Assembly (NCBI GenBank): GCA_965178125.1
Contig: OZ237738.1
Location: 1,054,001 to 1,118,000, forward strand
Direction of reading: 5' to 3'
DNA: 64,000 nucleotides
From: Bilabrum cf. latius
Lineage: Eukaryota
The notes under the pieces were generated by a model. It was not told the DNA's origin. It saw only the letters and a program-made list of their open reading frames with translations, and did not search any database. The position numbers were made by a program, and so were the translations under genes. This document shows positions 279 through 64,000 of the stretch, one piece after another (position 1 is the stretch's first letter; each line of letters opens with the position of its first letter).

Positions 279-3032
279 ATGCCCTGGGCCCCGATTCGTT
301 CGCTACAGTGGCTTGCCCTGTCCGGCTTGCTCCTTGGCATAACCAGCGACAATCTTGCCCAAGGAATAGAGTGGCCTTCTTCGCTGTCTGACGTTACGCA
401 ACGTAAGATCGACAGCAATAGATTGCTTGGATCAGGTGTGATGCGTTCTTCATGCTGCCAAACGGCCGTGTGTCTCGTATTCTTGAGTATACCCGCAGTG
501 TTTCAACCAACGGACGCGAAAACCTGCCAAGCGCCAGGCTCTGGTCATTGGGATGGGCTGCCCCGAACAAGCATAGCTGCCAATATTGCGCCATAGCTGC
601 AGTGCGCGGCCCAATCTGCATGGTGAGCAGTTGATGGTGTGGACCAACGTGTAGATTCAACATCGCACCGCCGAAGCCCGTCGCGCCCTTTTACAGTCCA
701 TAAAGCCGCAGGGACATGAAGAGCCCGTTCACCGCTGTTGTGTTGCATAGCGTGTGGCCAGAGGCCGGAATCATGCTTACCAGGTCTATTGCAACTGCCG
801 CACTCGCCAAAGCTGGCGATGATCGCGAGCGCAGCTCGTTCGGCCAATCAGCGCCGGACCACATGGCCTTTGCAGCATTTGAGTGAGCCTGTTTAGATAA
901 ATGGTATGCTTGCCTATGATTCGTATTGTCTGTCTGGCCCTGTAGGACTCATTTTCTCCAGCTTCCATTTCGGGGAATGTCCACCCCTGTCTGCAACCAA
1001 AATCGCGCGGATGACCCATTAGTACCCCCAAACGAGCGCACCACATCCAATTCCCGTCCGCAGTGTGCTTCCTGGATCCACTGGAAGGCAGCAATCTCAG
1101 ACGCTGCTCAGGTTAGAGAGCCACCTGGCAACCGCGACCGCAGCGTGCGGCGGGAGCGCGGTGGTGGCGCTGCACGGAGCCGACAACTTGGGGCCGCGGG
1201 CGGCTGGCAGACTGGCTGAAATCGTGCTGATGTACTCGAGTGCATCGCATGATGGTGCATCCAGTGAGAGTCAAAGGGTCAGCAGCTGGCAGCAAGGAGC
1301 TGGAGATGCTTGCCGCGTCGCGGCCGCTGGTGGCAGCACTAGGCTTGGTGATGGTGACGAGGACCCGTACGACGAGCAAGATTTGGAAGATGCTGATGCT
1401 GATGCTGATGCTGCATCGAGCTCTGGGTCGAGGCGCGCAGGAGCCCGACCACAGAACCGGGTCCTGCTGCTTCTCACTGCCGCTGCAGGCGCCGGCCAGA
1501 TTCGGCAGCACTACCATGCGATGCACCGCGCCGTTTTGCTCCAGGCTGAGATCAACAGCACAGTTACAGCGGCACGGGCCTCTTCTTCTTCTTCATCGAC
1601 CTCTGGCCTGGCCCCGGAGGCACAGCAGGCGCTGGCCAAGGCTCGGGATGATGCAGCGGCCCACCTGTCGGCACTGCGGGATTCGCTCCCGCGAGACCTG
1701 CACAGGGCATTCTGGGCCCAGCACCAGGCGATGCGGGAGGGTGGAAGCGCGGGGGCGGTCGCCTGGCGGCAGCTGGCAGGCCGGTCCCTGTCTGTCCCTG
1801 TCCTGACCCATCTGCCCTGGGCCCCCGCTGCTGTGGCGCTGGGACTGCTGCGGCACGTCGCGGACTCGGAGTCAGAATGGAGCCGGGGCATGACGAGTGA
1901 CAAGCGCGAGCTCAGGCGCTGGGACCAGCTGGACCTCGGCCCGCTGCCGATGGCTGCCTCGGCGCTGGGAGGGTACCCGTGGCAGCAGCTGGAGCGGGTC
2001 CGGGAGCATGGGACTAGCGGCGATGCCGGCAATAGCTCGGACAGCGGATATGGCAGTGTCTTCGTCACAGCTCTGCCACCGCCCTCCAGGGGTTTGACCC
2101 TGTGCTTCAGCGGGAAATGCGGTGACGGGCTGCCTTCCCCCTCGGGCACAGGGAGCGGGTCCGGGAGAGACTTTGTGCTGCGCGCCACGGGGGTATCTGC
2201 GGGGTGGATCGGGGCCGTGACTAGGGAGGGCGATGCGGTGGGGGAGGGGAACATAGGCTCGGAAGGTGCGGGGAGCAGCGGGGCTCGGTCCAGGGAACAG
2301 CACCGGAGGGTGCAGTGCAGGACAGGATCCCCGCTGTGCGCGGTGGCTGCTCTGGTGGAGCTGCTGCGGTGCGAGTTTCCTCCCACGCCTCGCAGCGACT
2401 CCTCTCTGTTCGAGGCGGTGCTGGACCGGCGAGTGGCGCGGGTGGCTTGGAGGAGACCAGAGGGCAAGGCGGCGTGGGTGGGTGCGATGGCGAGGGCGGC
2501 TGCAGCTCTGGGGGGTGAAGAGAACGCAGGTGGGTCTGGGTCTGGGTCTGGTGCTGGTGCTGGTGCTGGTGCTGATGAGAGCGTGCTGTCGGTATGGGGG
2601 GGCTTGGCTGGAGGAGGCGTTGGGACGGAGGGTGGAGTAGAGTGGTAGGCCGAGGGCGAGTTGGGGCAGTTCCTGAGCACTGTGATGCCCGCATTGGGGG
2701 CGAGCATGGGCGCAGGTGAGGGTGAGGCTGGGGGTGGGGGTGGGAGTGCTGGAGAAGGGTCAGGCGGTGGCGGCAATTCTGCAACTGCTTCTTCTGCTGT
2801 AGAGCTGAGTGAGCCGGTGGTGCATCTCCGAGCATGCGTGCAGAACGACATCGAGAGGAGGGACGCACCCTAGTCCCCGGTCTTTAAGGAGGACATCTGG
2901 TTCCCCACGCCGTTCGGGACACTCGTCCCAAAGGGGGTGCAAAAGGGCCTGCCAAGCGAGAGCTGTGGCAAGGTGGCGGCAATGAGGCTGCTAGACAGTG
3001 TGAAGGAGTAGTGCAAGAAAGGGGTCGACTGA
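279..3032 (+). CDS. Hypothetical protein with N-terminal signal peptide; weak resemblance to a degenerate torsin/LAP1-LULL1-type AAA+ fold
   Basis: ORF 1065-2648 reads on through TAG 2646-2648, 2871-2873 and 3009-3011 to TGA 3030-3032. ATG 279 gives a hydrophobic leader (LQWLALSGLLLGI). Probable 5' introns (GTAAG ~403, GTGAG ~623, GTATG ~904) are not resolved. ACGGSAVVALHGADNL and RVLLLLTAAAGAGQI recall torsin ACARSIFIFDEMDKM and KAMFIFLSNAGAERI. The start and exon structure are uncertain. Confidence 0.5.
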
Positions 3033-3180
3033 TCAGATGTTAGGAAGACGTGGTTTTTGCTTCGCGTGACTTGCCAAGTTGTTGTGTGTGCACGCAGCCC
3101 AAGTTAAGCATCCGGAGTCGAAACAGAACGGCGGCTAGGCTAGCCGGGCTTCGACCAGAATCCCGGCGAATAAATCAAGC

Positions 3181-16559: not shown

Positions 16560-17417
16560 ATGGCAGCAGCCAGCGACGTGGCGAGCGCCAAGTCTGAAAC
16601 TGCTGGTGGTGAAGAAGATCACTACGTGCACGTTGCTGCGAGCTATGAGAAGGCATATTTCTACGACTAGTCCAACAAGACGTATCAAAACTTCCTTGCT
16701 GACAGCCTGCAAAAGAGCTTGCAATGCAAGCCAGGCCAAGATGTTGTGGATCTAGGGGGCGGAACCGGTCATTTCACGGAATGGTTTGCGTCTAGGGCCG
16801 GAATTGACATCGAAAAGGCTTGTTGCGTTGATCCCTCGGCAGCCATGATCGAAGTAGCTTCCAAGCGAAAAGGACTTGGAACATCGTGCGAGTCAGCCCA
16901 AGACTTCATCGGACACACAGATTTGTAGTACGACCGTTTGTTCTTGAAAGAGGTCGTCCACCACATCCCTTCAGACGAGCTGCAGGAGGTGTTCAACGGC
17001 GTGCAGCGGCAGCTGCGTGACGACGGCCGCATGAGCATTATCACAAGAATGCCGACGTCTGAGCACTATCCGTTCTTCGAGGCAGCTCATAAAGTATGGG
17101 TTGACAACCAGGAGCACTATGACACCTACGCTGACATGCTGCGCAAGTCAGGCTTGGAGGTCGACGTAGCAATCCGAGATTTTGAGGTGCGTATGCCCAA
17201 AGAGGCGTGGATTGGAATGGTGCGATCCCGATTCTGGAGCACCTTTAGCCACTTCAGCGACAAGGAGTTGGAGGCTGGAATCAAAGAGCTCGAGGCTAGG
17301 TTCAAGGGCGAGGAGGAGGTCGTCTTTCCTGACCGACTAGTCTTCATCACTGGAATCAAGGGGCCTGCCAGTGGTACGCTGGACGAGGGGGAAGCAAAGA
17401 AAGTAGGTGGAAAGTAA
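16560..17417 (+). CDS. Class I SAM-dependent methyltransferase (285 aa)
   Basis: Motif I VVDLGGGTGHF, CVDPSAAM, YDRLFLKEVVHH. Two in-frame TAG (FYD*SNK, TDL*YDR) join ORFs 16719-16928 and 16938-17417. Ends in TAA. Confidence 0.88.
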
Positions 17418-34800: not shown

Positions 34801-36405
34801 TACCGGTCATGCCGCGCGCGGAATCCAGGGCGGGCCCGGAACAGCGCCCTGATGCCTGCCAGGGGCACCTCTGCCTGCTGGTCGACCCCGATGCCGTGCC
34901 GAACCACCCGCAGCGAGGAGTCTCCGAACGCGCCCGAGCACGTGACCAGCTGCCCCTCCTGCTCCCCTGGCTGCTTCACGAGGCACATGTCCTGGATGGG
35001 CCCCAAGTTCGGGTAGTTGTCCTCGATCGCGAGCCGGTCCCCCGTCTCCTCGTCCGCCTCCTCCAGCTCCCTGACCATGAGGCTGTCCCCGAAGGTCGAG
35101 CCCAGATAGTAGTACCCGTCGCCAAGGGGTGAGATGCTCGTGGCCACGCAGGCGGTACCGAGGGGATCCAAAGTGAGACCAATCACACTGGCGGCTCCAC
35201 CACCGGCACCCGCGCCCGAGGCAGCCGCCGACGAACCGGTGCCGCCGTCCTCCTCCATGGCTGCAGACCCAGCACCCACAGCCTCCTCCTCGTCCTCGTC
35301 CTCGTCGCCCTCCCTCACAAGCCCAACGGATAGCAGCTTCCCGCGGTCGGTGCTCACCAAGACCCTCCCGGTCGGCTCCACGGCCCACCCAGCCACGACC
35401 AGGTCCTCCTCCAGATCCAGCTTCACGGGGGGGCCCCTCGAGGCAGAGGAGGGGACGTACTGCGCGGCATGCCCGCCAAGGACCACGGTGCCACCCCCTG
35501 TGGCGGCAGGGAGAGGAATCAGGCAGCTCGCTGCCGGGGCCGTGGCGATCAGCTGCCCGCCAGGGGCGGGCACGAACGCAGCGTTGCCCAGGTCGATCTG
35601 GTATGAGACCACCCTTGGGACAGCCTGTGACGGCGGGTGGTGCAGCACGGTGAAGGTCGGTCGGGTGGCTCCGTGAACGGGTGCAATGTCAAGGACCTCG
35701 GTTTCTCTCAGGAGCATGTTGAACTTTCTCGCGGGCTGTCCGCCGCGAGGGGGAATCACCACCTTGGCTAGCCTTGCGTACGCGTGCACCAGCATGTACG
35801 TGAATGGTTCGGGCACAACAACGATCGGGCCGTGCTCGACGGGGCACCCATGGTCATCCTGCGCAAAACTCAATCTAGGCGCATCAGACAGGGCAGGATT
35901 TGGGCCTTTCTAGCTTCATCGGCACACGAGTACAGCGCAAGGGGCATTTGCTCACTCGAAGATTTCCCTGCATCACTGTTTCCAGACGTCCCATCTCTTC
36001 GTTGAACTGGACCACAGCAAACTGCATCCTCTATGTCATAATCAGCATGGAATCCTTCTCTTGCTCCTGCAAACGAGAAATTCGTCAAGAATTGGGGTGG
36101 ATCGTTCGATTCAAAGAAGCAGATCGTTCGGGAAGCAGAATAAGGTGCCCATACTTGCAGAACCGGACCGAGAAACTCACAGGCATTCGAACTATCTTCA
36201 AATAAATAATCCTGCCATTCACTGGCACATCAAAGCACGGAACGAGGCCATCATCAGTAATCGTGTGAGCCTCCAAACGAGAAGACTTGGCCATGACCAA
36301 ATATGCATCTCCATCGTCGCCTGCGAGCCTTCCAACTACTGAACTGGTGACAGAAGTAGGCTTCTATGCAGAGACCACGTACTGCGGGGGCATTGACCCG
36401 CTCAT
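31842..36405 (-). CDS. DDB1: DNA damage-binding protein 1 (CUL4 adaptor)
   Basis: N-terminus QYVVSA(Q)KPTSV versus DDB1 NYVVTAQKPTAV; YLGSTFGDS, NLGPIQDMC, GQLVTCSGAFGDSSLRVVRHGIG, VGDMMKSV, GFVDGDMLE, LEELSRKH. Introns 36067-36180 and 35859-35955; 4 TAG; ends in TGA. Confidence 0.95.
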
Positions 36406-36560
36406 CTTGGCGAAGGTTTGACCTCCACGTCTCGGCTGACGAAAAGACGGCGCCGCGCAGCAGCTAGCGGAACCTGCAAGTCGAGACCGAGCCACTTGGG
36501 GGGGGCAAGCACATGCACCACCCTTCGAAAATGCTACGGCAACGGTATCTGCTCTCTTCA

Positions 36561-38063
36561 TTACATGTACTGCTGCTAGTCCACAAAGCTGGTCTCCCCA
36601 AACATGTCCCCGGCACCGAAACGCCCTGCCGCACTTGAAGCTGCAGACGAAACCGCCCCGCTCCCGCCCCATGCCGCACCCCCCACCCCACCCATGCCAC
36701 CAGAGCCCTTACCCATTGGATTATCATCCCCAGAACGGCCAGCAAGCGCGCCCGCACTACCACCGCCTCGCCCCCAAGGCGTCGCAGCCGCAGCGGCCCC
36801 ACCAACTGCACCCAAGCTGCTGCTGCTGCTGCCAGGCCCCAGCCCTCCCCCTACATCGCCAGGCGCTCCATCGTCTGCCTCGATCCCGTCCTCTCCTGCA
36901 CCGGCCACTTCCACCTCAGACACGCACTGCCACTCGCCCGCCAGCGACTGCCTCCAGAGTCGAGCCACGCCGTCGTCCGCTGACGACACAAGGACCGAAC
37001 CAGTCACTCCCCATCGCACTCGCCACACCTCGGACGCGTGATCTCCGAGCACTGCAGTTGACTGCACCGTCTGCAGCGACTTGACCGTGCTACCAGCCCC
37101 TGCTGAGCTGCCAGTCCCATCGCCAGCTGCTTTGGATTCCCTTGCGTCTCCAGCGCCGGTTGCAACCGCATGCGAGGTTGCAACCGGCACCAGGCCCAGC
37201 TCCCCGTCGAGGCCGTCCCCCTCGAGCAGGTCGGGTCCCTCCTGGTCCGAGGCGGCGAACTGCCACAGCCTGACCGTGCCGTCCCTTGAGCCGCCCGCCA
37301 CCCAGTGCTTGCTGCGGCCCATCTGCGGGGCCCAGCTGACGTCGTTGACGAGGTCCGTGTGGCCCAGGAGGACGAAGGTCTTGTTCCACGTGCTCGTTTC
37401 GTCGTGCCGCACCCATACTGATATCTCTCTGTCGTCTCCCCCGGCCACCAGCATCGGCGGGTCCAGGCGGCTGTCGGACCACGACATGGCCAGCGCCCCC
37501 TGCGGCCCGGTGGCTACCTGGAACTTGGCCTCCAGCACGTAGTCTCCCACGTTCATCAAATCCGCGATGGTGTATATTCTGACGTAACCGTCTTCGCATG
37601 CAATGGCTATTGTGATCACATCCAAGTGCTTAGGGCCGAACTTGACGTCCCGCACGGCATCCTTGCAGTCTCCGATTGCCTAGGAGGGCTGCCATTTTGA
37701 GACTACTTCTTTCCCACCCTCTGTCACATACTCTGTTTCCTACCACAAAATCACTTTCTTGTCCTGCCCACACGAGGCGAAAACCTGCCCAAAAGAAGGG
37801 TCCGCCCAATCCAATCGCCACACGGCCCCTCGGTGCGCATCCTGGAGCTCGCCTTGGCTTGCTTTCCACTCGCCAGTTAGTGGATCCTAGTTAAACACTC
37901 GAATGCTTCCAACAACGTCACACACAGCCAACCGCTTCCCATAATAATCGAACGAGATGTCTGTAATTGCACTGGTCATCTCTGCCTGAAGCCGGGCCAC
38001 ATCCACTGGCCCACCGCTGTGCTCAGGCGGAATAACAGCGGGAACAATTGCGTGTCCATCCAT
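36561..38063 (-). CDS. SEH1: Nucleoporin Seh1 (Sec13/Seh1 WD40 family)
   Basis: DISFDYYGKRLAVC, AHRGAVWRLDWADPSFGQVFASC, VRDVKFGPKHL, VNDVSWAPQMGRS, HASEVWRVRWGVTGSVLVSSADDG. No intron needed with TAG=Q (37889, 37742, 37682, 36578). Ends VDQQQYM-TAA. Confidence 0.88.
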
Positions 38064-39322: not shown

Positions 39323-42300
39323 TTAGACCAAGCGAACAGCCACCGCGTCAACCTCCCTCGCGCTCGCCGGTTTGCCCAGCACCTCATCCAAGCCAGCAGC
39401 TTTGAACGCCTCCAAGTCCTCTCCAAGCGCATCCCCCGTCAATCCAACAATCACGAAACGCGAATCGAATTCGGACCGGATCGCCTGCGTAGCCTCCACG
39501 CCGTCCATCACCGGCATCGATTTGTCCATCGTGATCAGGCCCAGGCACTTCACCCCCGGCCCCGCCTGCTGTGCCCGGACCCGACACGCCTCGACTGCCT
39601 TCTGCCCGTCCTTGGCCTGGTACACGCTGTATCCTAACCTTCGCATGCCTCTCGCGAGCAGCTTCCTGTTGGTGGGCACGTCATCCACGATGAGACACCA
39701 TTGTTTTAGCTGGTCCGAGCGATCCACTGCCGCAACCGCTACGTGAGGCCTACTTGCATCACCGATGTTCGCGACGCCACCTCTCGCTGCAGCCCCTTTA
39801 GTCGTTTCTTCACGTAAATGTCCTGCTCTCGGTGCAGCGCAAGCGTCGGATCGATGCGCAGCAGTCGCCTACACAGGTACGTGCACTGCGCTGCGATCGT
39901 CGGGAAAAAGATCAGCCCCTGCAGTGCGCACGTGCGCCTTGCTCAAGTCACCACATTCGGCGACGTGCTATCCCTGTTCTGGCGGGTTTGTTGCACCCTC
40001 GTTGAGCATTTCTTCCCGCTCTGCCCGCTATTGCTAGTGGTGCTGCTGCAGCTGTACAAGGCCAGCAGCTCCAACGGCGGTGGTAGAGGACACGGAGGGC
40101 TCCCCATCTTGGCACCGAGCCTCGAATTCAAAGGTGAACACGCTGCCCATGCCCTCCCCTTCGCTGGATGCCACTAGATCGCCCCGCATTTGGCGAGCAA
40201 GCCCTCGCGAGATGTACAGGCCCAGGCCAGACGACGATCCAGAGTACTACTACCCATGGCGGGTTTGTTCATAGGGTCGAAACAGCCTTGCGAGAGACTT
40301 TGCCGACATCCCGCACCCGGTGTCGGAGACAGACAGGCGCAGTCGCACTTTCTTCTCGCGATGCGCCACTGGCACGACAGTGGCAAGCCGCTAGCCACCG
40401 ACAGGCTTGGCAGGCTCAGCGACATGCACCGCTGCAGCACTGGCCTAATTGCCCTTGTACAATACTTCAGCACTCTACGTCTACGGTGCGTCCAAAGCAC
40501 CTCGAATCACATTTTCCAGGTGCACCTGGATGGCCCCGCCGGATGGAGTGAACTTGAGCGCGTTCGATACCAGGTTCGCGATGACCTGCTTGATCCGCAC
40601 GGGGTCTCCATGTATGTGGTCCGGCACCTCTCTGCCAACATCGGCGACAAGGCGTACCCCCTTGCTCTGCGCAGTTCGCCTAAAAGTGGCTGCGATGTCA
40701 TCGAGCACCTGTGCCGTGTCGACCACCTCATTTCTCAGCTTGAGCCTGCCCTACTCGATGCGCTGCGCCTCGAGCACATCGTCAAAAATGAGCTGCAGTC
40801 CTTTGCATCCTTCCTGCTGTGACCGAAGCACGTCAGTGGCGTCCTCCATTGCCAGCTGAAGCCTTCGCCTGAGTTCGTGCACGTGCCCACGGTTGTCCGC
40901 AGCAGCTGGCCCGTGTGAATCTGTACTTGCACTCGGACACACCCTCTCATTTTTGCTTGCACTCTCTATTAGCTGGCGATGCGCAACAGAGAGCTCTTGC
41001 AAACTTGCATGCAGCTCTTGGACAGACAGAGTCACCGCCTGCAGAGGCACTCGGGCCTCGTGGAAGATGTACCTGGTGAACTGCTGGATGGTGCTCAGGC
41101 GGGCATCGGCGGCTTCCCTCCTCCATTTCTGCGACTCTGCGGCCTGGTTTGCCACTACCATGACATCATCGTGCAGAACCGCTAAAGCCAGCGCGCACCG
41201 CAGGGCCACAAACACGCAGGCGCAAACTGCCTGGATTGTGCCTGCCTACTCTTGCGAGTACCCGAGCCAGCGCACGCCAACAAACGTGTGCTGAAACCCC
41301 AGGCCCGTCACCATCATCAGGGCGATCAAGATGTTGGGTAGTCGGATGACGCCATCGTTAGTGGGCTGCTCCTGCTCTTGGTCATGGTGTCGCTGCTGCG
41401 TTACGGTGCTGAAAACAGCACTGGGTCGCCTTTCGTTGCTAAAGCTGCTGCCAGAGCCTGCCGCTGTCTGCTCCCAAGCCGCGATACCGATCCCAGGACG
41501 CCGATCTCCCCGGTCTGACCGGCCATTGCTCACTCTATTGGATTCAACGTTATCATGGCGTTCCAGTTTGTCGCGACAGCAACACCATTCGACGTCACCC
41601 CCAACTGCGATCGCCGGCGGCACACCGTCTGGATCGGCGCCCGCTGCAGGCGCTATATTTGTGCAGCAATTCGCGAGTCTCACTGAGATGTATGGGTCCA
41701 CCACTCGGTCAAGTGGCCCTCGGAATATTTCAAGCCCAACATAGAATGTGGCCAAAGGGTATGCAATAACAGATGCCGCTAGGATCCCCTCAGTGGACCA
41801 GGAGAGCGGGAACGCAACAAGAACCGTAACTAGCCACATGCAAATTATGCTGGCCAACAGCCCCAAAATTCTCCTACTCCTAGAGAACACGGCAATGGGG
41901 AGGTCATTTCCAGCGCCAAGGACAGAAACTCCGCTAAACAGCCAGGTTTGCGCAAGCTCCGGAGACCCCAGCACGGCTCGCGAGGACGACACTCCGGATG
42001 CAAACTGTGCCATAGCGACGCACGCCTGCGCATACAATAGCCGAGGCTTGGAACGCGTACGTAACAGCATGCAATTTCATGGCCAGAAATAAGCATTGAA
42101 ATATTTCTCACCGCCAGATTTGTGAATACCGATGAAATCAGAAACAGCTGTACTCTATTGTGGCTCCATATAACTGCCCCGTACGCGACAAATGCACACT
42201 GTAGCACTAACACACCAGACACTGCAAACAGAAGCGGAGCGAGCTGTACGTTCGGCTTGTCAGCTTCGAAATCAGCTGCTATGCTGATGCGTGGATCACA

Positions 42301-44186: not shown

Positions 44187-44304
44187 GGCGACTAGATACT
44201 GTGTTTACTCCTGAAATGCATTTATTATTCATGTTTCCGTGCTGCTCCGGAGCCATATATTTTAGTGCCTTGCGGAGTGCCGAACACAAACAGTAGGTGG
44301 TACC

Positions 44305-47953: not shown

Positions 47954-50900
47954 ATGCCAACCGTGCAGGTACGCGGGGTGGATGTGGAGTTCCCATTCAG
48001 CCCGTACACCGTGCAGAATGATTATATGGAGCATTTGGTGGGAGCCATGCAGCTGAAGTCGCATGCACTACTAGAATCGCCGACGGGAACAGGAAAAGTG
48101 AGCAACGCAGCCGCACGAACAGCTGCGGCCGGTCCCACATTTGAAACCGTGCCTGCTGTGACGTCGAGTAGATTTTCTCCTGCACGCAGACGCTTTGCCT
48201 GTTATGTGCCGGTTTGAGCTGGTAGCGCGAATATTGTGCTGCACTTGAGCAAGTTTTGGTGATGAGGCAGCAGCACGGGGTGGGCGGAGAGTCTCGGTTC
48301 GACAGCGCAAACCTGCGTCGCTTGTTGCGGTCTGCTGGCCAAGTAGAATGGATTCAGCCCCCGGACACATCCGGAGAGGCTGGTCTGTCGTTTGCAGGTC
48401 GCAATTATTCGTACGCAGAGCCCGCCAGCGCATCCAAGGACGGACTCTTGCAGACCAACTCTGGAGCAACTGCTCGTGCTGCTCTGCGCGCCACGCTCCG
48501 CGCCGGCCAAGGTCGACCGAAACCGCTGGTAATGCCCTCTAGTGCCCCCGCGTACCAATCGGCCTTATCGCTTCCCGAATCAAGGGGAGAGCCGACGCTG
48601 GGATCGGGCGGGGGCCTTCCGCCGCCTACAGTTGTCACACCTTCGGGCACGCCTTCTCCTGATAGCCTGCGCTACAGCCGCCCGAAGATATTCTACGCCG
48701 CGCGCACGCATACTCAAGTCTCTTAGGTCGTGCACGAACTGCAGATGGCCTCGGGCTACCGCCCCAGGATCGCAGTGCTCGCTTCGAGGGACCGCCTGTG
48801 CGTGCACGAGAAATCCAAGGAGCTCGGGGGCAAGGCGCTCCAGCGGGCATGCACCAAGATGCAGAACGAGGGCAAAGACACGGCCTCGGGGGCCTTTGCA
48901 GCGGACCAGTCGGCGCACCGCAGGCTCAAATTCAGCCGATGCCCCGCGGCCCGGCAGCTGGCGAGCTACCTGGAAATGTACGGGGGTACCCCCAAGGTGT
49001 TCCAGGTGGCGAGGGCCGTGTCGATCGGCGTGGGGGGCAGGCGCAGGCTGCTCCTGCCGGAGGATGTGGGAGCGGAGACAGCGGAGGGAGTCACCGGTCC
49101 AGGGAACAAGTGGGTGAGGGGGCAGGCCGGTGGGGAGGCGGCAGGGTGGGGTGCGGCAGGGGCGCTGGCAGCCGCAGCCATGCGAGGAGGAGGGCCATCC
49201 TCTGCGTCATCCTCGTCTGCATTCGTTGGTATGGACGAGTTTGGGGGCGGTGCCGGCGATGATTTGAACGGTGGACAGGCCGGTGGGTCGGGGCGATCCA
49301 AGGGCAGCTTTTTGGCGAGTCGCCAGCAGAAACCAAGACGAGCGACCGTTGGAAGTGCGCGGCTGGGAACGCGGCCTGCCAAATCCCGAGGTGGGGATAG
49401 CACCGAGGGCAGGGCGAAGGGTGATGGCAAGTCCGGCACCTCGCGAGCCAGGGCTCGCAGGCAGCTTGCAGCCGAGGCGATCGAAGACGGTGTTATGGAT
49501 ATAGAGGACATGCGGGAAGCCGGCAAGAAATCCGGCTTCTGTCCCTTCTACTTCAGCAGGCAGCCCACGACCCTCGAGCAAGCAGACCTGGTGCTGATGC
49601 CGTATTCCTACCTGCTGGACCCCAGCGTGCGGTCCTCGATCCCTGGCCTGCAGGAGCACCTGCGCGGCGGGGTGGTGATCATCGATGAGGCGCACAACAT
49701 CGACAAGACGTGCGCCGAGTCGGCGTCCTTCGACCTAGGGGGCACCCTCATGATTGACTGCGTGGAGGAGCTGCGAGTGGCCACGGAGCGGGCGCTGGGG
49801 CTGGCGGGAAAGTCCCTGCAGCCGGCGCAGGGGCAGGCTGGGACCTCTCAGCTAGACATGGCTGCGCTCACGCAGAAGGCAGCAGACGCTCGCGTGACCG
49901 TGCAGCTGCCCAACCAGCAGGCCGTGGAAATCACGCCGAACCAGCTGTTTGCGCTGCAGCAATCGCTGATGAATTTCAGCCGGTGGGTACAGGGGCACGA
50001 TTTCGGCGGCAAGCCTCAGAACCATAAATTTAAGGTGTACAAGGGCAGCACGATCGTGACTGAGCTAGCCAAGGTGGGCCTCACCCTAGAGGGCTACCAC
50101 TTCAACGACCGCAGCGAGAGGCAGGGCACCCAGGCCAACGCGCTTGAGGCGGCCATCGTGCTGTGTGGGGATGCCAAGGCGGCCTCACTGTTCGCTGCTG
50201 GGTCAGACATGTCATCGCGCACGGCCGACGTTACAGACACGCCGCTGGAGCAGCTGCGTGACATGCTGGACAAGGTGTTTGTGCTGGGAGGGCTCATGGC
50301 CACGTTCATGGAGGAGTACCGCGTTGTGATCCGACCTGAGGTGAAGCCACGGTCCAAGGCGATGATCGCCTCCGCCTCCGGTCTCAACCAGGTGTCGTTC
50401 TGGTGCTTTCGGTCTCACGTGGCCATGCGCCAGCTGCAGGAGCTTGGCGTGCGCTCGGTGATTCTGACGAGCGGGACACTGTCGCCGATGAAGGCCCTGC
50501 AGCACGACCTGGGCATTCCCTTCAGCGTCAGGCTGATCAACCCGCACGTGGTCAGAAAGGACGCGATGCGAGTGGCCGTGCTGGGCAGCGGGCCGAAGGG
50601 AATCGGGCTCAGTAGTAAGTTCAGCAGGCGATCCGACCCGGGGTATCTGCAGGACCTCGGGGCCAGCGTGGTGCAGCTGGCAGCGACCGTTGGTGCTGGG
50701 GGCGTGCTCGTGTTCTTCTCGTCGTACAGTCAGCTGGATTCTTGCGTCACTGCGTGGCAGCAGCAGAACGGGGGCGCGGTTTGGCGCCAGCTCAACATGG
50801 CGAGGCACGTGGTGGTGGAGCCGCACAGCACGGGCGAGATGGACGAGGTCATGAAGAGTTACGAGGATGCCCTCAGCAGCGGCAGGGGTGCGCTTATCAT

Positions 50901-53900
50901 GGCCGTGTGCAGGGGCAAAATCGCAGAGGGAATCAATTTTGGGGACAACAGGGGCAGGTTGGCGATCATAACGGGCATTCCGTATCCGAATTTCACGGAT
51001 ACGTGGGTGCAGGTGAAGCGGAGGTTCCTAGACGAGCAGCTGGCCATGGCGCGCAGGCAATTCGCCATTGCAGCCAAGGGGGCAGGCAGCTCCGACATGC
51101 AGGTTAGAGATCTCCCGCCGTCCGGCTCGGACTGGTACGCCCAGCAGGGCATGCGGGCGGTGAACCAGGCCATCGGCCGCGTGGTGAGGCACAAGGACGA
51201 CTGGGCTTCCGTGGTGCTGGCGGACGAGCGCTTCGCCGAGAATGGCATCGCAAAGGATCTGTCTGAATGGCTGCAGCCCTTCATATACCGTGGTGCAGCC
51301 GGGGGCAGCGCTTCGACGATGGGGCTTGGGTCGGCCGCGCAGCCGTCTGCTGGACTCAAGAAAGAGTACGCAGAGGTAGTCAAAGTGACGCGAGAGTTCG
51401 TGCAGTCGAACCAAAGGCTGGAGAGATCAGCAGCAGCGGGATCCAGCGGCATCGGGGATCAAGTTGCACTGTTCGGCAGGAAAGATGATGATTCGGGTGC
51501 CGCTGCGGGCCAGCAGCACGGGAGAGGTGATCGGGACGGAGCTGGCGATCGAGCGGCGATGAGAGCCCAGCGGGAGCTCGAGGAGCTAGAGCAAGCCAAG
51601 GCCAAGGAACAGACGAGGAAGGCGATTGCCGAGCATCGGGCCAAGCTGCAGGCATCGGCTCCTGCTGGGCTTGCCGGCCTGCTCGGTGGTGCAGCTGGTG
51701 CTGTCGATGACGGCGGGGCCGGTAAAGGGTCATCCAGCTCGTCACAGTCTGCTGCTGCAAGTCGTCAGCAGGGCATGGACTCCAGCAGCGCAAGCGATGG
51801 TATGCTGGGTACCGGAGAATCTGGAGGGTAGATTGATGCCTTTGGTATCGTGCTGCGGGGGCCGAGCGACGCATCTCGCAAGACTAGAGCTTCACAGGTG
51901 GATCCACCTTCCGGGTCACAAGACACTGGGTGCGGAGCATCAGAGAGCCTGCTTGGTGGGGTCCAGCCGGCGAGTGATGCGAGCGACTCTGAGGGCGTAG
52001 CATGTGGCTCTGACGTCGACAGCGACTCGGGGGACGAGGAAGCGAGCAGGGCGGGCAGTGGGAAGTCTCCAGATGCAAAAAGCAGCGCCAGCCAGCGACG
52101 GGCTCCTGCAGCCACGTTGCAGAAGTTACCGGAGGGTGTGGATCACCCTCAAGGCGAAGAGAAACGCCCAGATGGGAGTACGGGCTCACTGAAGTCCCCT
52201 GCAAACGCAGGGCCGGCGGATGTGGACCCCCTCACGAAAGTGAAGCTGGTGCAAGACATGCTGGCGGGGTTCAGGGAGCTGCTCGCAGTCAAGCAGGGGG
52301 ATGCTGAGGAGGTTGCCTAGGCACTTCAACAGAGATATGCTCACTTTAAGGAGGTGCTAAAGTCCTTGTCCAAGGCAGACCTGTCGGTCAGCAGCCAAGA
52401 GGACCCCAAACAGGCCGGAAAGCGCATGCAAGATCTGTTGCTCGTGGTAGGAGTCATATGCGGCCTGCTCCCCCCCGTGGCACTCCCAGTAGGGGATTCG
52501 TTCTCCGAGCTGAGCGATGCCCTGGCAGCTGAGCCTGCCGAGGTGCTCTCCTCGAGGCTGGGCACGCTGAGGGTCCGAGGGCAGTGCCTCAAGCTCTTTG
52601 CCAAATATGCGGCGCTGGGCAGGGCCCAGGGCGTGGGGGATCAAATGAAACACGTGGGCCGGCTGGCGGCAGTCTACTGGCAGTCGAGGCAGGAGCAGCA
52701 GGCTCAGGACAAGGAGCGTGATGCCCAAACTAAGGGAACAGCAGGGGCGGCCCAATCGCGGCCGACTGGCTCGCAGCAACAGCAATAGAGGCACCATCAC
52801 GGATCGATGGCAAGCAACGCAGCTAACGCTGCATATTCATCAAGTACCGTAGCTCTGGCGCGACCGGCCAGCGGAAAGCCACCCTCGATTGTAGGGAAGC
52901 GGCCGAGGGCCGCCATGGATGCTGGCAGCAGCAGCAGCGGGATGCCCGTCACGCAGATTACCGGTGGTTATGCCAGTAATCGTAGCAGAACTACCGGGGT
53001 CGGTAGGAGTCGTGTGGCCAGCGGTAGCGGCAGTAGCAGCATAGGGGCAAGCCAGCGGTTCGGGTCAATGACAGCACCAGGACATGCCCTGGGTCAATCT
53101 GTCATTGACGGAGGCCTCGTCGATTTCGACGCGAGAGAAGAGGCTCGTTTGGCCAAGCGGCTGCGGACCAACGCACGGAAGCAGCAGGAAATCCTGAGGA
53201 TGTCACAGGTAGGCTCATCGTAGGCGGGGCCAATGCGTCCACAGCTGCCGGGCGAGTTGAAGACAGCAAGACAGGGATAGCTTGGATTTGGAGGGGGTGC
53301 AGCGGCCCGGCCTGCCGTAGGCAGCAGGACCGGAAGGCGCGATGGTGCATAGCCCGGGCAGTAGCTAGGCCCGCAGCCGAGTGGTACGAAGAAGGGCAGC
53401 AAAACGAAGCGAAAGGTAACTCCTTCTTCTCGGCGGTCTGCGGCTCTCCTTTCGGCTGCTTCTGGAGCGGGCGCTGCCATGGCGCGCGCGGGATCGAACC
53501 CGAGATAGGGACGGATTGCTGCGGGCATCGCTGCTGGTCTCGCGGGGACCTCTTCAAAGTCTCATGGCCACTCGTCACAGTCCCAAGGCCTCACGAGAGA
53601 CCTAATAACCGGTCGCGTGATTCGGCCCAAGGTACCGCTGGTGCATGGTGCTGTGGGTCGAGTAGAGCGTGCTGCAGACGCTTCAGCTTCAGCAGGCCAG
53701 CACCGGGACAAGGGAAGTTAGAAGGTCAGAAAGATAGATCCGATTGGACGTAGCATTGGTGCGGGTGCAAGTGCTGTCGCCGGTGCTGCGGCAGGTGGGC
53801 TGTTTCAGTACTCGCAGGCAAGCTCGCTGGCAGGTGGCAGTCTGTAGCGGACTGCTCCTGTGGGTGCACCAAAGATGTAGCCCGCTGTGGCAGGGAGTAG

Positions 53901-54105
53901 CCAACTGGAGGGCGATGATGACTCGTGTCCTATTTGCATGACGGGATACCGGTCGCTCGCCGAGCGCGGGGTGAAGAAGATGAAGGCGCGCAGGTGCGGG
54001 CACGTCTGCTGCTCGTCTTGCTGGAAGGGGTGGATCCGGCTCAAGATCGAATGCCCGCTGTGCAAGCAAATTGTGCGGCCCTAGCAACTAGAAGACGCGT
54101 CTTGA
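47954..54105 (+). CDS. RTEL1: RTEL1/FANCJ-family Fe-S DEAH helicase with C-terminal RING finger
   Basis: VEFPFSPY, LLESPTGTGK|TLCLLC..W(Q), RTHTQVS(Q)VVHEL, CPFY, IIDEAHNI, ILTSGTLSP, AVCRGKIAEGINF, RAVNQAIGRVVRHKDDW; RING CPIC..CGHVCC..C..CPLC. Intron 48098-48189; 14 TAG; TGA 54103-54105. Confidence 0.9.
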
Positions 54106-54264: not shown

Positions 54265-55065
54265 ATGTCATCATCGGCTGCTGTGGGAGCAAAACGGGCG
54301 CGAACGGACGGAGCTGGATCGGATGGGCCGGTTGTTCTGCACAGCTACTGGCGGAGCTCGTGCTCGTGGCGAGTGCGGATCTGTTTAGCACTGAAGGGAA
54401 TCCAGTACGATTACAAACCAGTGCATCTGCTGAACGATGGTGGCGAGCAGCTCAAGCCTGCATACGCAGAGAAGAATCCTATGAAGGAACTTCCTACCCT
54501 GGAGATCGATGGCCTTGAGCTTTGTTAGAGCATGGCGATCATCCAGTACCTCGAAGAAACTAGACCCGGGGATTCTGCACTCCTTCCAGAGTCCCCGGCA
54601 GACCGGTACCGCGTCCGTCAGATCTGCGATTCAATCGTGCAAGATACGCAGCCTGTGCAGAATCTTCGTGTGCTCAAGCGCGTGATGGGGTTCTTTGAAG
54701 GCGACGAGAAAACCAAACAGAAGCTAGCTTGGGGTAAATGGGCCATTGAGCTTGGCTTTGATGGAGTCGAGAAGATGCTCGAGAAGTCTGCAGGCAAGTT
54801 CTGCTTCGGAGATGCAGTGACGCTCGCAGACATTGTGCTTGTCCCTCAGGTCTACAACGGCAAGCGGTTCGGAGTGGACTTCAGCAAGTATCCTACGATA
54901 ATGCGAGTTCATGCAGCTCTCGAGCAGCTTGAGCCTTTCAAGCAGGCACACCCGGATCAGATGCCCGACGCGGTCAAGGCAGCGGCGCCAGCGCCAGCGC
55001 CAGCGCTAGCAGCGTCGTCGTCGTCATCGTCGAGCTCCTCCGCAGCCACGGGCGGAGGCCAATGA
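54265..55065 (+). CDS. GSTZ1: Maleylacetoacetate isomerase / glutathione S-transferase zeta
   Basis: LHSYWRSSCSWRVRICLALKG, NPMKELPTLEIDGLELC(Q)SMAIIQYLEE, QPVQNLRVL, HPDQMPD. The single TAG 54526-54528 is at the conserved QS Gln; ends in TGA. Confidence 0.95.
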
Positions 55066-61574: not shown

Positions 61575-62135
61575 AACAGCTCAGAGAGATCACACAGGCT
61601 GTAACGATAAGGGCAGGCCAATGGGTGTGCTTGGCCAATGGGTGCGCTTGGCCAATGACCGCTAATGTGCAAAACGATCGCAAGTGGAGGTGCCGCGCGG
61701 CGCCCGTGATGAGCGGCGTGGTCAGGCAAGCCGTCACGGTGTGTTTGGCCGACGAGCTAGTATTGCAGGACATGGACCTTCATCATAAGCCCGTCCATGA
61801 GGTGTTCTAGGCTTGGGCCGGGCCATGGCAGCGTTCATGCAGTCTTGGCTGGGGGGTATCTGCGCCCAACCGGGGGTTGCGATCATCGCAAGTCTACTGC
61901 CGCAAATGGTCAAGTAGAGCTATCTACACCAACTGAAATAATCCTTTGTTTGAGGCTTACGTTACTGGCAGCACGCAGACCGACCTTCACATCGGTAGAC
62001 CTGCGTGTATGCCCTTCCATGGCCACTCGCTGCTTGTTGGGTCCATTCAGCAATCCAGAATCCAGAATCCACACGGACAGCGGCGGGTCGCATGAGGCCT
62101 CTCCGCAGGCTAGCTGCATGGGCCATTCCGCAGGC

Positions 62136-64000
62136 TCACGAGCTCGGCAGCGGCCCCCATTTCTAGTTGAACTGAGCCAGGCGGCTCTCCACCTGCTGCC
62201 TGTAGCCTGGGCCGTTTGGCGAGAACACGATCATTCTAGCCACTCCGCTGCCTTGGGCCGGGAAGCTGACCTAGTCCAGCTGCAGCAAGTCTGCCCCGTG
62301 CACCCCCTTGCCCGGAAGCAAGGCCCACTCACTCTGATCCAGGGGGCGCACGGTCGCATTCACGAGCTCGAAAGCGTCCCAGGCATCTCCACCCCGAGCA
62401 CTTGCTCCGCCCTGTGCGAGCATGGCCGGGGGAACAGACACGTTGACGGCCGGCAGTAGGTGCGCCTGCATGTCCCAATGGTAGTCCTGCTGCAGAGCGC
62501 ACAAAAGGTCCGAGTAGTTCCCGTTCTGCTTCAGATTGATCAGGGTCACCAGCAGCGCCTCGTCGTTCCACAGTGCGCTCGCGATCGAATCGGGGTCCCC
62601 CCCGGTTGACACCTGGGCAAGGGGCCACGCCGCTCCCTGCGTTCCCAGGCGGGCCGAATGCAGCGTGCCAGAGGTGCGCACCAGCTCTCGTACGGAGGCG
62701 AGCTGTCGGTTGAAGCGGCCCATGGCCAGCCAGGACGCGGGCCAGAACTGCATCTCGGAGATTTGTGACTGAAAGAGCATCATCCCCTTCCCTCCCGCCG
62801 CGATCACGCTCATGAGCTGAACGGATAGTTCCGCTGGGTCTGGCTGCCGGTGGAATCGGATCGGTCCTATCTTCCCATCCCAACCGTCGTCGAACGCCTG
62901 GGAGTAGAGCCAGGCGGGCCAGGGTGCCTGGTTCGCGGTAGTGGTACGAAGGTAATCGAAGCTGCCACGGAGCCAGAAGGGGCTCGCCCATTCGGTCACG
63001 TGGGGAGCACACGCGGCCACGTAAAAGTCCATCCCTTTGTAGTCCACCGTGTGGCCCCACAACCCCTGGTGCCGGTTGCGAGAGCCCCCCACGTAGGTGC
63101 CAAACCCAGGGTACGCCTTCCAGCTGGTCTGCGAGTGGGCGGCGTCTGGCCGTACATTGTGCGAGTGGTCGTCGGACTCGTCGCCCTGGAAGATGCCAGC
63201 GATCCTGCTGGTGTTCTTCAGCGCTGAAATATCGATCGATCCATCTGCCAGGGCCCAGAAATCGTACTGCGGCGCAAGGGTGCCGGCGATGATCGACCCG
63301 TTCGGGCCCCCGCACTTTGACGCGGATCCCTACGACACGAGGAAGGTATCGATGCCGTATTTCCGGTGAAGTTTGTAGTTCGTGTCGTTGACGGTGGGAA
63401 AGGGGCACTCGCTGGACTTCTGCCAAGCCTCGATGGGAAAAAACTCGAGCAGTGCTCGCCCGCCCGCCACAGCCTCGCCGGATGTCGTGTTCGCGAGCAC
63501 CGTCCACAGGTCCCCACGCTAAAGTGGGCTTGATAGTTTTATAATCCAGAGAGTTTGCTGCCCTGGCGCAAGCGTTCGGCTTGCAGCCGGGACCTGCGAC
63601 AGCACGTCCACCCCGTTCACGTGCAAGCTCTGCAGCTGCGAGTAGCTGGTGACCGTCGAATTCGGCGCCGTGCCGAGGCTGGCGTAGATCAATATCTCCC
63701 CACCCTCATTTCGGGTTGTCACATAGTCGATCGAAACAGCTGCATGGGGATCTTGCGGGGCAAGAATCCTGATTTGCGAGCTTGCCAATGTTGTGCCAGA
63801 TGTTGTTTGCAGCTCAATGGATGTCAATGAGCCAAGTTTTGCCACGGTATCCCACACACTTCTACTAGAGTGTAGCGTGACAAGCACTTGATCTCCAGCC
63901 TGCAGCGCCCCCAGCGGCAAAATGTGGAAAAAATCCACCTCCCAAAGCGATGGATCGCTGCTCGAATTAGTCGTGTTAACTGCTGTTCCATTGATAAGAA
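62136..64000 (-). CDS. Partial (5' end beyond window) protein with glycoside-hydrolase-like TIM-barrel features
   Basis: Frame open from the window end through TAG 63519, ~63330, 62271 and ~62163 to TGA 62136-62138. GIFQGDESD, QPDPAELSVQLMSVIAAGGKGMMLF; many NxT/S sequons. Confidence 0.6.

What the first reader, a model, noticed from the sequence alone, without database searches (positions are those of the whole stretch)
3030..62138. UAA and UAG are decoupled: UAA is still a stop
Under the TAG=Gln reading the genes end in TGA 21 times and TAA 4 times (17415-17417, 31730-31732, 36561-36563, 39323-39325). I found no TAA inside any rebuilt coding exon despite about 100 TAG. Most eukaryotic reassignments change UAA and UAG together (ciliate-type table 6); UAG-only reassignment is rare (reported for Iotanema spirale, a rhizarian and some ciliates). 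This implies a tRNA-Gln(CUA) without a UUA counterpart and an eRF1 that rejects UAG but reads UAA and UGA. It may be an independent origin; I cannot confirm the lineage or its novelty from this window.
Basis: partly seen in the sequence, partly recalled or inferred. Interest (0 to 1): 0.88.

Follow-up and report, generated by a model that had tools for sequence, protein, structure and literature searches.

The report
Eukaryote reads TAG as glutamine
This stretch of a GC-rich eukaryotic genome uses the stop codon TAG as an ordinary glutamine codon while TAA and TGA still end genes, a rare split of the two codons known from only a few protists.

Summary
Reading TAG as sense turns broken frames into 24 long ORFs (17,816 codons). 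Sixteen of 27 scanned translations have Pfam domains. These ORFs hold 104 in-frame TAG and no in-frame TAA; 20 end in TGA and 4 in TAA, at the coordinates given.

TAG means glutamine. In maleylacetoacetate isomerase it falls on a column that is Q in 117 of 146 homologues. It also matches Q in FANCJ. In a 91-96% identical relative whose genes were called with TAG as stop, it matches Q, Q, Q and E. Spliced contigs of three runs carry 27 of 34 TAG codons unchanged.

TAA behaves as a stop. About 25 in-frame TAA would be expected if TAA were also glutamine. Coding signal falls after all four TAA ends. The methyltransferase and histidine-kinase ends agree with homologues.

Not testable here: tRNA-Gln(CUA), eRF1, the lineage, and whether TAG still terminates some genes. 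The code type is known (NCBI table 15; Iotanema, a few ciliates). The genome does not look like theirs, so an independent origin is likely. The scan has met this code before only in giant viruses.

The parts
3030..62138 (.). Span of the finding: gene-dense eukaryotic DNA (61% G+C) whose genes are open only if TAG is read as sense
   Evidence: Pfam domains in 16 of 27 scanned ORF translations.
54526..54528 (+). In-frame TAG in maleylacetoacetate isomerase (GST zeta), at the conserved Gln-Ser motif
   Evidence: Q in 5 of 5 printed PDB alignments. Q 117, E 23, D 4, G 1, gap 1 in 146 aligned representatives. Coordinates verified.
48724..48726 (+). In-frame TAG in the RTEL1/FANCJ-like helicase, ahead of the helicase core and the C-terminal RING finger
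   Evidence: Aligned to Q of FANCJ and to K of XPD. Helicase_C_2 and RING domains lie in frame downstream.
34158..34160 (-). In-frame TAG (codon 586) in DDB1
   Evidence: The 96%-identical relative P0001 has Q. Human DDB1 has L. A spliced-run contig carries the codon with 0 differences.
33057..33059 (-). In-frame TAG (codon 953) in DDB1; the C-terminal CPSF_A region follows in frame
   Evidence: Relative P0001 has Q. Human DDB1 has N. The alignment to human DDB1 runs to the last residue of both proteins, in front of TGA 31842-31844.
53878..53880 (+). In-frame TAG (helicase codon 1912)
   Evidence: Relative fragment P0125 has Q here.
52318..52320 (+). In-frame TAG (helicase codon 1392), shared with the relative
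   Evidence: Relative fragment P0124 ends exactly one residue before it, so the relative has a standard-code stop there and its genes were called with TAG as stop.
54082..54084 (+). In-frame TAG (helicase codon 1980), 7 codons before the closing TGA; either a fossil of a former TAG stop or a still-used terminator
   Evidence: Relative fragment P0125 ends exactly before it. Distance to the stop.
16926..16928 (+). In-frame TAG (methyltransferase codon 160)
   Evidence: The 91%-identical relative P0004 has E. The column is variable in 120 homologues.
39869..41247 (-). Twelve in-frame TAG inside the hybrid histidine kinase, upstream of its receiver domain
   Evidence: HATPase_c and Response_reg domains in frame. 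All 12 lie in contig pieces of the spliced runs with 0 differences.
17415..17417 (+). TAA that ends the methyltransferase gene
   Evidence: 109 of 120 homologues have fewer than 10 residues beyond this C-terminus, and relative P0004 ends at the same residue. The coding score falls from 30 codons downstream onward.
39323..39325 (-). TAA that ends the hybrid histidine kinase
   Evidence: The Pfam receiver match ends 8 residues before it. PDB receiver alignments end 3-11 residues before it. Coding score is -0.50 just downstream, and the next in-frame TAA is after 24 codons.
36558..36563 (-). TAA that ends the Seh1 gene, followed at once by an in-frame TGA (tandem stop TAATGA)
31730..31732 (+). 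TAA that ends a low-complexity Arg/Gly-rich gene whose spliced transcript is on the + strand
   Evidence: Joint 29671 to 29808 with GT..AG ends. TAG, TAG and TAA follow in frame within 25 codons.
35858..35954 (-). Spliceosomal intron of DDB1. Others: 36066-36179 (-), 42025-42110 (-) and 29672-29807 (+). Boundaries may shift by 1-2 bases.
   Evidence: Joints in contigs of runs X6, X7 and X8. Intron ends read.

Best explanation
The organism uses a nuclear genetic code in which UAG has been reassigned from stop to glutamine, while UAA and UGA (the main one) still terminate translation. This is the NCBI table-15 type. Shown here: UAG stands inside conserved, transcribed, spliced genes, it corresponds to Gln, and UAA is absent from reading frames and sits at homology-consistent gene ends. 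Inferred from established knowledge of other reassigned lineages, not shown: a tRNA-Gln with anticodon CUA, which pairs with UAG only, decodes the codon. No tRNA with a UUA anticodon exists. The release factor eRF1 has lost or weakened UAG recognition while keeping UAA and UGA.
For: (1) TAG must be read through. With TAG as sense, ORFs of 500 aa or more rise from 7 to 24. Domains lie in frame downstream of TAG codons: the receiver domain after 12 TAG, the RING finger after 14, the CPSF_A region of DDB1 after 2, and the C-terminal GST domain after 1.
(2) TAG is not removed or edited. Contigs of three runs that carry GT..AG joints hold 27 of the 34 in-frame TAG codons between 29 and 49 kb, with 0 differences.
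(3) Distant homologues point to Gln. The GST-zeta column is Q in 117, E in 23 and D in 4 of 146, and Q in 5 of 5 printed PDB alignments. FANCJ has Q at helicase codon 194. One Seh1 structure has Q at codon 78.
(4) A close relative points to Gln. Its protein fragments stop exactly at two of our TAG codons, so its genes were called with TAG as stop. Where it has a standard codon at our TAG positions, the residues are Q, Q, Q and E.
(5) Among all residue types, TAG has the second-highest share of Gln neighbours (6.0%; Gln itself 6.6%; background 4.2%). The base after TAG is distributed like the base after CAA/CAG.
(6) TAA is a stop. There are 0 in-frame TAA against about 25 expected. A codon-usage score trained only on TGA-ended genes drops after all four TAA ends. 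The methyltransferase end matches 109 of 120 homologues and the close relative. The kinase ends 3-11 residues after its receiver domain. Seh1 has a TAATGA tandem stop.
(7) TGA ends are real. DDB1 aligns to the last residue of human DDB1 in front of TGA.
Against: The sample is one 64-kb window with 24 ORFs and only four TAA ends. Two of those ends (Seh1 and the Arg/Gly-rich gene) have no homology-defined C-terminus. At several TAG sites the nearest homologue has E, not Q: Seh1 codon 127 in 3 of 3 printed alignments, RNPS1 at RRM codon 50, and the relative at methyltransferase codon 160. Other sites align to A, H, K, L or N, or to variable columns. TAG is half as common among Gln-type codons inside domain matches (13 of 175, 7.4%) as outside (60 of 427, 14.1%; p = 0.027). 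It is mildly enriched in the last 12 codons (5 of 104 against 14 of 755; p = 0.07). So TAG may not be fully equivalent to CAG, some counted TAG may lie in untranslated parts of my stop-to-stop ORFs, or TAG may still terminate some genes. No tRNA, eRF1, peptide or ribosome data were available.
Confidence: 0.82

Rival explanations
1. The code is the common ciliate or ulvophyte type (table 6). Both UAA and UAG mean Gln, and UAA is simply too rare in a 61% G+C genome to appear in 64 kb.
For: TAA is the rarest stop triplet in the window: 368 on both strands, against 873 TAG and 1547 TGA. Only four genes end in TAA.
Against: A-ending codons are not avoided: CAA is 19.5% of CAA+CAG, and A-ending codons are 13-41% of every NNR pair. 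About 25 in-frame TAA would be expected and 0 were seen, while the other two frames of the same ORFs hold 50 and 58. Making TAA sense lengthens no long ORF. Reading through the methyltransferase TAA would add 395 residues that no homologue has. Upstream of the six ORFs whose 5' bound is TAA, five have further stops within 40 codons. The sixth (RRM) has a non-coding score of -0.07 upstream.
Confidence: 0.03
2. UAG is a sense codon but encodes glutamate or another residue, not glutamine.
For: E stands opposite TAG in Seh1 homologues at codon 127, in RNPS1 at RRM codon 50 and in the close relative at methyltransferase codon 160. E is the second commonest residue in the GST-zeta column (23 of 146). 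Y or F stands opposite RRM codon 6 in several printed alignments.
Against: The one near-invariant column tested is Q in 117 of 146, with no Y, L, S, K or W. The 91-96% identical relative has Q at 3 of 4 comparable sites. At that identity, three E-to-Q changes in four sites are very unlikely, while one Q-to-E change is ordinary. FANCJ has Q. TAG sits next to or inside short Gln runs.
Confidence: 0.04
3. UAG has two meanings: Gln inside genes and stop near the 3' end of some mRNAs. This context-dependent termination is known in Condylostoma, karyorelict ciliates and Blastocrithidia. Some of the ORFs that I end at TGA or TAA would then really end a few codons earlier, at TAG.
For: Five of 24 ORFs have a TAG 4-9 codons before the closing stop, and a sixth has one at 13 codons. 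That is 5 of 104 TAG against 14 of 755 CAA/CAG within 12 codons (odds ratio 2.7, p = 0.07). The TAG 7 codons before the helicase stop is shared with the relative.
Against: The enrichment is weak. It is equally what former TAG stops would leave behind after a complete reassignment, with each gene extended to the next stop. No gene with a homology-defined end (DDB1, GST zeta, methyltransferase, histidine kinase) ends at a TAG. The base after TAG does not differ from that after CAA/CAG.
Confidence: 0.1
4. The TAG codons are not translated at all. They would be assembly errors, pseudogene lesions, tiny introns, or sites edited in the RNA.
For: None beyond the a priori rarity of code changes.
Against: 104 TAG against 0 TGA and 0 TAA in the same frames cannot come from decay. 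Contigs of three further runs carry 27 of 34 TAG with 0 differences and splice out only four GT..AG introns. Two TAG are shared with the relative.
Confidence: 0.01

Closest known systems
Iotanema spirale (Fornicata): nuclear UAG = Gln, UAA and UGA = stop (PMC5304391, passages read; PMC11687900, passages read)
   Same: The same codon table: only UAG is reassigned, to Gln, and UAA is kept as a terminator.
   Different: Iotanema is a fornicate, a group that PMC9161772's abstract calls anaerobic. This window encodes a 2OG-Fe(II) oxygenase, which by general knowledge needs O2, and maleylacetoacetate isomerase of the tyrosine breakdown pathway. It is 61% G+C. Relationship was not tested, because no Iotanema sequence was at hand.
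Ciliates with UAG = Gln only: Hartmannula sinica, Trochilia petrani, Protocruzia tuzeti (PMC11687900, passages read)
   Same: The same table-15 code. In those ciliates too, UAG shows no sign of a second meaning.
   Different: In those species 93.5-100% of aligned protein ends were at UAA (PMC11687900, passage), whereas here 20 of 24 ends are TGA. This is a 64-kb, 61% G+C stretch with about 25 genes and introns of 86-136 bases. By my recollection, not by any search, that is unlike AT-rich ciliate macronuclear DNA.
Other UAG-only changes: Scotinosphaera (UAG = Ser, TAA and TGA stops; PMC8271138, passages read) and the rhizarian exLh (UAG = Leu; PMC5304391 listing and PMC11687900 passage)
   Same: UAG and UAA are decoupled, and UAA is kept as a stop.
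   Different: A different amino acid. The GST-zeta column has no S or L among 146 homologues.
Amoeboaphelidium protococcarum (aphelid): TAG and TAA reported as Gln (PMC5304391 and PMC6299283, passages read)
   Same: A eukaryote outside the ciliates with a stop-to-Gln change. I considered it because an 'algae metagenome' run holds a small share of the window's words.
   Different: Its genome is 40.5% G+C (PMC10608142, table 1) against 61% here, and its reported code includes TAA. Rejected as the source.
Giant viruses reading TAG as Gln with TAA and TGA as stops
   Same: The same codon table.
   Different: Those are viral genomes with unknown hosts. This window is cellular: it has spliceosomal introns, a nucleoporin, DDB1 and RTEL1. 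No link between them was tested.

Membership tests
Nuclear code of NCBI table-15 type (UAG = Gln; UAA, UGA = stop) | In-frame UAG in conserved protein-coding genes | tested here: met
   104 in-frame TAG in 24 ORFs, 13 of them inside Pfam- or PDB-matched domain stretches. Domains lie in frame downstream of TAG.
Nuclear code of NCBI table-15 type (UAG = Gln; UAA, UGA = stop) | UAG corresponds to glutamine in homologues | tested here: met
   Q in 117 of 146 at the GST-zeta site. Q in FANCJ. Q, Q, Q and E in the close relative. Other sites are variable or show E, H, K, A, L or N.
Nuclear code of NCBI table-15 type (UAG = Gln; UAA, UGA = stop) | UAA is not a sense codon and terminates genes | tested here: met
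   0 in-frame TAA against about 25 expected. Four TAA ends, two of them consistent with homologues' ends. Based on one window only.
Nuclear code of NCBI table-15 type (UAG = Gln; UAA, UGA = stop) | UGA terminates genes | tested here: met
   20 of 24 ORFs end in TGA. DDB1 aligns to the last residue of human DDB1 in front of TGA.
Nuclear code of NCBI table-15 type (UAG = Gln; UAA, UGA = stop) | UAG no longer terminates genes | tested here: inconclusive
   No homology-defined end falls on TAG. However, 5 of 104 TAG lie within 12 codons of the closing stop (p = 0.07).
Nuclear code of NCBI table-15 type (UAG = Gln; UAA, UGA = stop) | A tRNA-Gln with anticodon CUA and no tRNA with anticodon UUA | not testable with these tools
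   ARAGORN finds no tRNA in the window. No whole genome is held.
Nuclear code of NCBI table-15 type (UAG = Gln; UAA, UGA = stop) | eRF1 N-domain changed so that UAG is not recognised | not testable with these tools
   No eRF1 among the window's ORFs. No genome is held.
Table-6 type code (UAA and UAG = Gln) | In-frame UAA at Gln positions | tested here: not met
   0 in-frame TAA in 17,816 codons. Making TAA sense lengthens no long ORF.
Context-dependent stop/sense codes (Condylostoma, karyorelicts, Blastocrithidia) | The same codon is sense inside genes and a terminator near the 3' end | tested here: inconclusive
   Weak excess of TAG close to ORF ends. No data on transcript ends or ribosomes.

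The most novel reading that the evidence does not exclude
This would be an independent origin of the UAG-to-Gln, UAA-retained code, in a poorly sampled, aerobic, GC-rich, intron-poor eukaryote unrelated to ciliates and fornicates. The change would be caught while still settling. TAG is held at half its usual share in conserved domains. Former TAG stops survive as TAG codons a few codons ahead of the new stop. UAG may still terminate at some gene ends. Such a lineage would also be the kind of host that the TAG = Gln giant viruses seen elsewhere in this scan require.
Probability: 0.3. Interest if true: 0.8.

Novelty: new member of a known kind. Interest (0 to 1): 0.62.

Why it matters
UAA and UAG nearly always change meaning together. 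PMC5304391's abstract cites at least 13 coordinated changes. Wobble at a UUA anticodon and the way eRF1 reads stops tie the two codons together, so each lineage that separates them is a natural experiment on how eRF1 tells UAG from UAA. The printed cases of UAG = Gln alone are Iotanema and three ciliate genera (PMC11687900). A further case would help for three reasons. It has a compact, GC-rich, TGA-terminating genome. Public DNA runs and runs with spliced contigs exist for it. A 91-96% identical relative allows codon-by-codon comparison. With these, one could test whether the same eRF1 and tRNA solutions recur. It would also give a cellular candidate to compare with giant viruses that use the same code. 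In practice, standard gene callers cut this genome's genes at every TAG, as the relative's fragments in the protein collection show.

Tried and rejected
Data that were not available or gave nothing:
- Whole genome: not held.
- tRNA scan of the window: none found.
- Rfam scan of the window: no match.
- This scan's notes on this genome, its relatives and its sequence: nothing.
- JGI metagenome scan with DDB1: 589 pattern matches, none a relative. I did not use the second scan.

Runs: no RNA holder is listed for the window. Runs X6-X8 are labelled RNA only as a guess, and I use only what their contigs bridge and carry. Parts of the stretch without contig cover, such as the Seh1 and kinase 3' ends, say nothing.

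Lineage:
- The top GST-zeta hits are about 50% identical and come from an oomycete, a diplonemid, birds and Apiculatamorpha.
- An Atlas look-up of the unexplained ORF 62274-63329 (-) returned bacterial hypothetical-protein clusters, one with a 14% Glyco_hydro_42 share.
- None of these places the organism.
- Amoeboaphelidium was considered and rejected on G+C (PMC10608142).

TAG columns that gave no information: both methyltransferase sites, kinase codons 442, 609 and 610, and DDB1 against human.

Literature: the searches found no paper on a GC-rich eukaryote with UAG = Gln only. Supplements were closed and subscription journals are not covered, so this is not proof that none exists.

TAA read-through: upstream of the six ORFs bounded 5' by TAA, no coding-like continuation was seen.

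Full report
WHAT THE WINDOW IS. The 64-kb window is 57-66% G+C. Under the standard stops it shows only seven ORFs of 500 aa or more. If TAG alone is read as sense there are 24, the longest being 2090, 1986, 1357, 1236 and 1004 aa. If TAA alone is read as sense the number stays at seven. I scanned 27 ORF translations (TAG = Q) against Pfam, and 16 carry domains. They are:
- DDB1
- a Seh1/Sec13-type WD40 protein
- an RTEL1/FANCJ-type helicase with a C-terminal RING finger
- glycyl-tRNA synthetase
- a hybrid histidine kinase with a receiver domain
- an RGS-plus-AGC kinase
- an MFS transporter
- a class I methyltransferase
- maleylacetoacetate isomerase (GST zeta)
- a 2OG-Fe(II) oxygenase
- a double SWIB protein
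- an RNPS1-like RRM protein
- an LRR protein
- two TPR proteins
- a second WD40 protein

These are eukaryotic nuclear genes. Contigs of three further public runs join across four short GT..AG introns. No whole genome is held. The window has no tRNA gene and no Rfam match.

THE OBSERVATION. I took 24 stop-to-stop ORFs (17,816 codons). They hold 104 in-frame TAG, no TAA and no TGA. Because the ORFs are bounded by TAA or TGA, the zero for TAA needs independent support.
- TAA is present in the other two frames of the same ORFs (50 and 58 times).
- CAA is 147 against 608 CAG, and in every NNR pair the A-ending codon is 13-41% of the pair. So 104 TAG would be accompanied by about 25 TAA if the two were synonymous.
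- Of all 368 TAA triplets on both strands, 43 have no TGA or TAA within 60 codons on either side. Only two of those 43 have both flanks above the out-of-frame 95th percentile of a codon-usage score. One is the methyltransferase end, treated below. The other lies antisense to a Pfam-supported gene and scores weakly, at 0.04 and 0.10 against an in-frame mean of 0.25.
- Six ORFs are bounded 5' by TAA. Five have further stops within the 40 upstream codons. The sixth (RRM) has an upstream score of -0.07.

TAG IS IN THE MATURE MESSAGE. Runs X6, X7 and X8 are coded, and their RNA label is only a guess. They contain contigs that skip 29672-29807 (+), 35858-35954 (-), 36066-36179 (-) and 42025-42110 (-), with GT..AG or its complement at the ends. 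The DNA run X1 does not skip these. The listed pieces of these contigs have no differences from the window. They cover 27 of the 34 in-frame TAG codons of the eight ORFs between 29 and 49 kb, including all 12 in the histidine kinase and both in DDB1. The other seven are simply not under a listed piece. So TAG is neither spliced out nor changed in these assemblies. Contigs cannot exclude rare variants.

WHICH AMINO ACID. The best single site is the TAG at 54526-54528 in GST zeta.
- All five printed PDB alignments have Q there, followed by an invariant S.
- A search of 1.84 billion representatives gave 150 best hits. I aligned 146 of them, leaving out four longer than 420 aa. The column is Q 117, E 23, D 4, G 1 and gap 1.

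Other sites against distant homologues:
- In the helicase, the TAG at codon 194 aligns to Q of FANCJ and to K of XPD. The TAG at codon 27 aligns to Q of FANCJ, but in a stretch that is not significant on its own.
- In Seh1, codon 78 faces Q in one structure and K in two. Codon 127 faces E in all three printed alignments.
- DDB1 codons 586 and 953 face L and N in human DDB1.
- Kinase codon 442 faces A in three printed alignments.
- The two RRM sites face H and E in RNPS1.
- Both methyltransferase sites fall in variable columns.

A second, independent line comes from a close relative in the protein collection. Its fragment P0124 ends one residue before our TAG at helicase codon 1392. P0125 ends exactly before the TAG at codon 1980. 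So that collection's gene caller treated TAG as a stop, and any residue it shows opposite our TAG codons comes from a standard codon. Those residues are:
- Q and Q in DDB1 (P0001, 96% identical, 1355 aa uninterrupted)
- Q at helicase codon 1912 (P0125)
- E at methyltransferase codon 160 (P0004, 91% identical)

Three Q in four sites at more than 90% identity fit Gln and not Glu. Finally, TAG has more Gln neighbours than any residue except Gln itself. The base that follows TAG is distributed like the base after CAA/CAG.

TAA AS A TERMINATOR. I trained a codon-usage score only on TGA-ended genes.
- After the Seh1 TAA it falls from 0.39 to -0.25. After the kinase TAA it falls from 0.31 to -0.50. 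After the TAA of the Arg/Gly-rich gene it falls from 0.15 to -0.17.
- After the methyltransferase TAA the first 30 codons still score 0.25. The next bins score -0.14, -0.23 and -0.32, although that frame stays open for 395 codons.
- Homologues settle the methyltransferase case. Of 120 homologues aligned (the best 120 of 235 found), 119 have their last residue opposite query positions 260-285 of 285. Of the 120, 109 have fewer than 10 residues beyond our C-terminus. The close relative ends on the same residue.
- The kinase's receiver domain ends 8 residues before the TAA by Pfam and 3-11 residues before it in PDB alignments.
- Seh1 ends with TAATGA.

For Seh1 and the Arg/Gly-rich gene there is no homology-defined end.

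WHAT REMAINS OPEN. (a) Mechanism. A tRNA-Gln(CUA) and a changed eRF1 are the expected solution from other lineages, but neither could be looked for. (b) Whether TAG still terminates anywhere. Five of 104 TAG lie within 12 codons of the closing stop, against 14 of 755 CAA/CAG (odds ratio 2.7, p = 0.07). This could mark former TAG stops now read through to the next stop, or residual termination. (c) Whether TAG is fully equivalent to CAG. Its share of Gln-type codons is 7.4% inside domain matches and 14.1% outside (p = 0.027). Part of this may come from untranslated sequence inside my stop-to-stop ORFs. (d) Lineage. The best GST-zeta relatives are only about 50% identical and are scattered over oomycetes, diplonemids, birds and Apiculatamorpha. 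Apart from the close relative, DDB1's hits are 31-34% identical.

COMPARISON WITH WHAT IS KNOWN. UAG = Gln with UAA kept as a stop is NCBI table 15. PMC11687900 (passages read) reports it for Hartmannula sinica and Trochilia petrani, and cites Protocruzia tuzeti and Iotanema spirale. PMC5304391 (abstract and passages) introduced Iotanema and the rhizarian exLh (UAG = Leu). Scotinosphaera uses UAG = Ser (PMC8271138, passages). The present genome differs from those ciliates in its terminator: TGA in 20 of 24 ORFs, against UAA at 93.5-100% of aligned ends. From recalled knowledge it also differs in G+C and in multi-gene contiguity. It differs from an anaerobic fornicate in encoding a 2OG-Fe(II) oxygenase, which uses O2. 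It differs from Amoeboaphelidium in G+C (61% against 40.5%; PMC10608142, table 1) and in keeping TAA. I therefore file it as a new member of a known kind of code, probably an independent origin. Seven literature searches found no description of such an organism. Supplements and most subscription journals were out of reach.

The scan's earlier notes report the same code in giant viruses with unknown hosts. That is a lead only, and I did not test it.

Noticed in passing
window 31842-35915 (-), 16449-17417 (+), 48145-54105 (+); proteins P0001, P0004, P0124, P0125: The protein collection holds a second set of these genes at 81-96% amino-acid identity. In the DNA run X1, 51 contigs lay on the stretch: 14 at 99% likeness or more, 19 at 95-99% and 18 at 90-95%. 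This could be a sister strain, a diverged second haplotype or a homeologous copy. Of six TAG sites that could be compared, two are shared and four are not.
   Followed up: partly
window 54082-54084 (+), 36576-36578 (-), ORF 20368-24078 (-), ORF 720-3032 (+), ORF 62136-63998 (-): Five ORFs have a TAG 4-9 codons before their closing TGA or TAA. These may be relics of former TAG stop codons, or sites where TAG still terminates.
   Followed up: partly
16 domain-bearing ORFs across the window: TAG makes up 7.4% of Gln-type codons inside Pfam- or PDB-matched stretches and 14.1% outside (p = 0.027). In the helicase, 1 of the 13 TAG from codon 194 onward lies in the 1228-codon conserved part and 12 lie in the 760-codon disordered tail.
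   Followed up: partly
window 31845: The 4355-base spliced contig of run X6 that covers DDB1 ends at 31845, the last base of the last sense codon. The TGA at 31842-31844 is not in it. The convergent neighbour gene ends 110 bases away, at 31732. This may be chance or a branch in the assembly graph.
   Followed up: no
window 39476-39650 and 41042-41116: Short stretches inside the histidine-kinase gene attract extra, diverged contigs in all four runs (summed word depth 45-107 in these bins), with base differences and a one-base shift. This suggests a repeated sequence or a multi-copy gene family.
   Followed up: no
window 27624-27807: A perfect-looking tandem repeat, 36 bases x 5.1 copies with 99% matches, lies between the WD40 gene and the LRR gene.
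   Followed up: no
window 62136-63998 (-): An ORF of 620 aa, cut by the window end, has no Pfam match. The language-model look-up places its nearest clusters among bacterial hypothetical proteins (score 0.96), one of them with a 14% Glyco_hydro_42 share. It is a possible gene of bacterial origin.
   Followed up: partly
window 58734-61244 (-): A kinase combines a weak RGS match (below Pfam's cut-off) with an AGC-type kinase domain. It ends in a Cys-aliphatic-aliphatic-X type tetrapeptide right before the TGA. This is a GRK-like architecture with a possible prenylation signal; the motif reading is recalled, not tested.
   Followed up: no
window 4540-10812 (-): A 2090-aa protein has a TPR-S sensor domain near the N-terminus and long low-complexity stretches. 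By eye, its C-terminal region resembles a class III nucleotide cyclase, but it gave no Pfam hit at E <= 0.001.
   Followed up: no
window 30244 / 45179: All four runs hold a contig that joins 30244 to 45179 through 22 other letters made of a short repeated unit, with only 20 bases matching on the shorter side. This is most likely a microsatellite-mediated assembly chimera.
   Followed up: no
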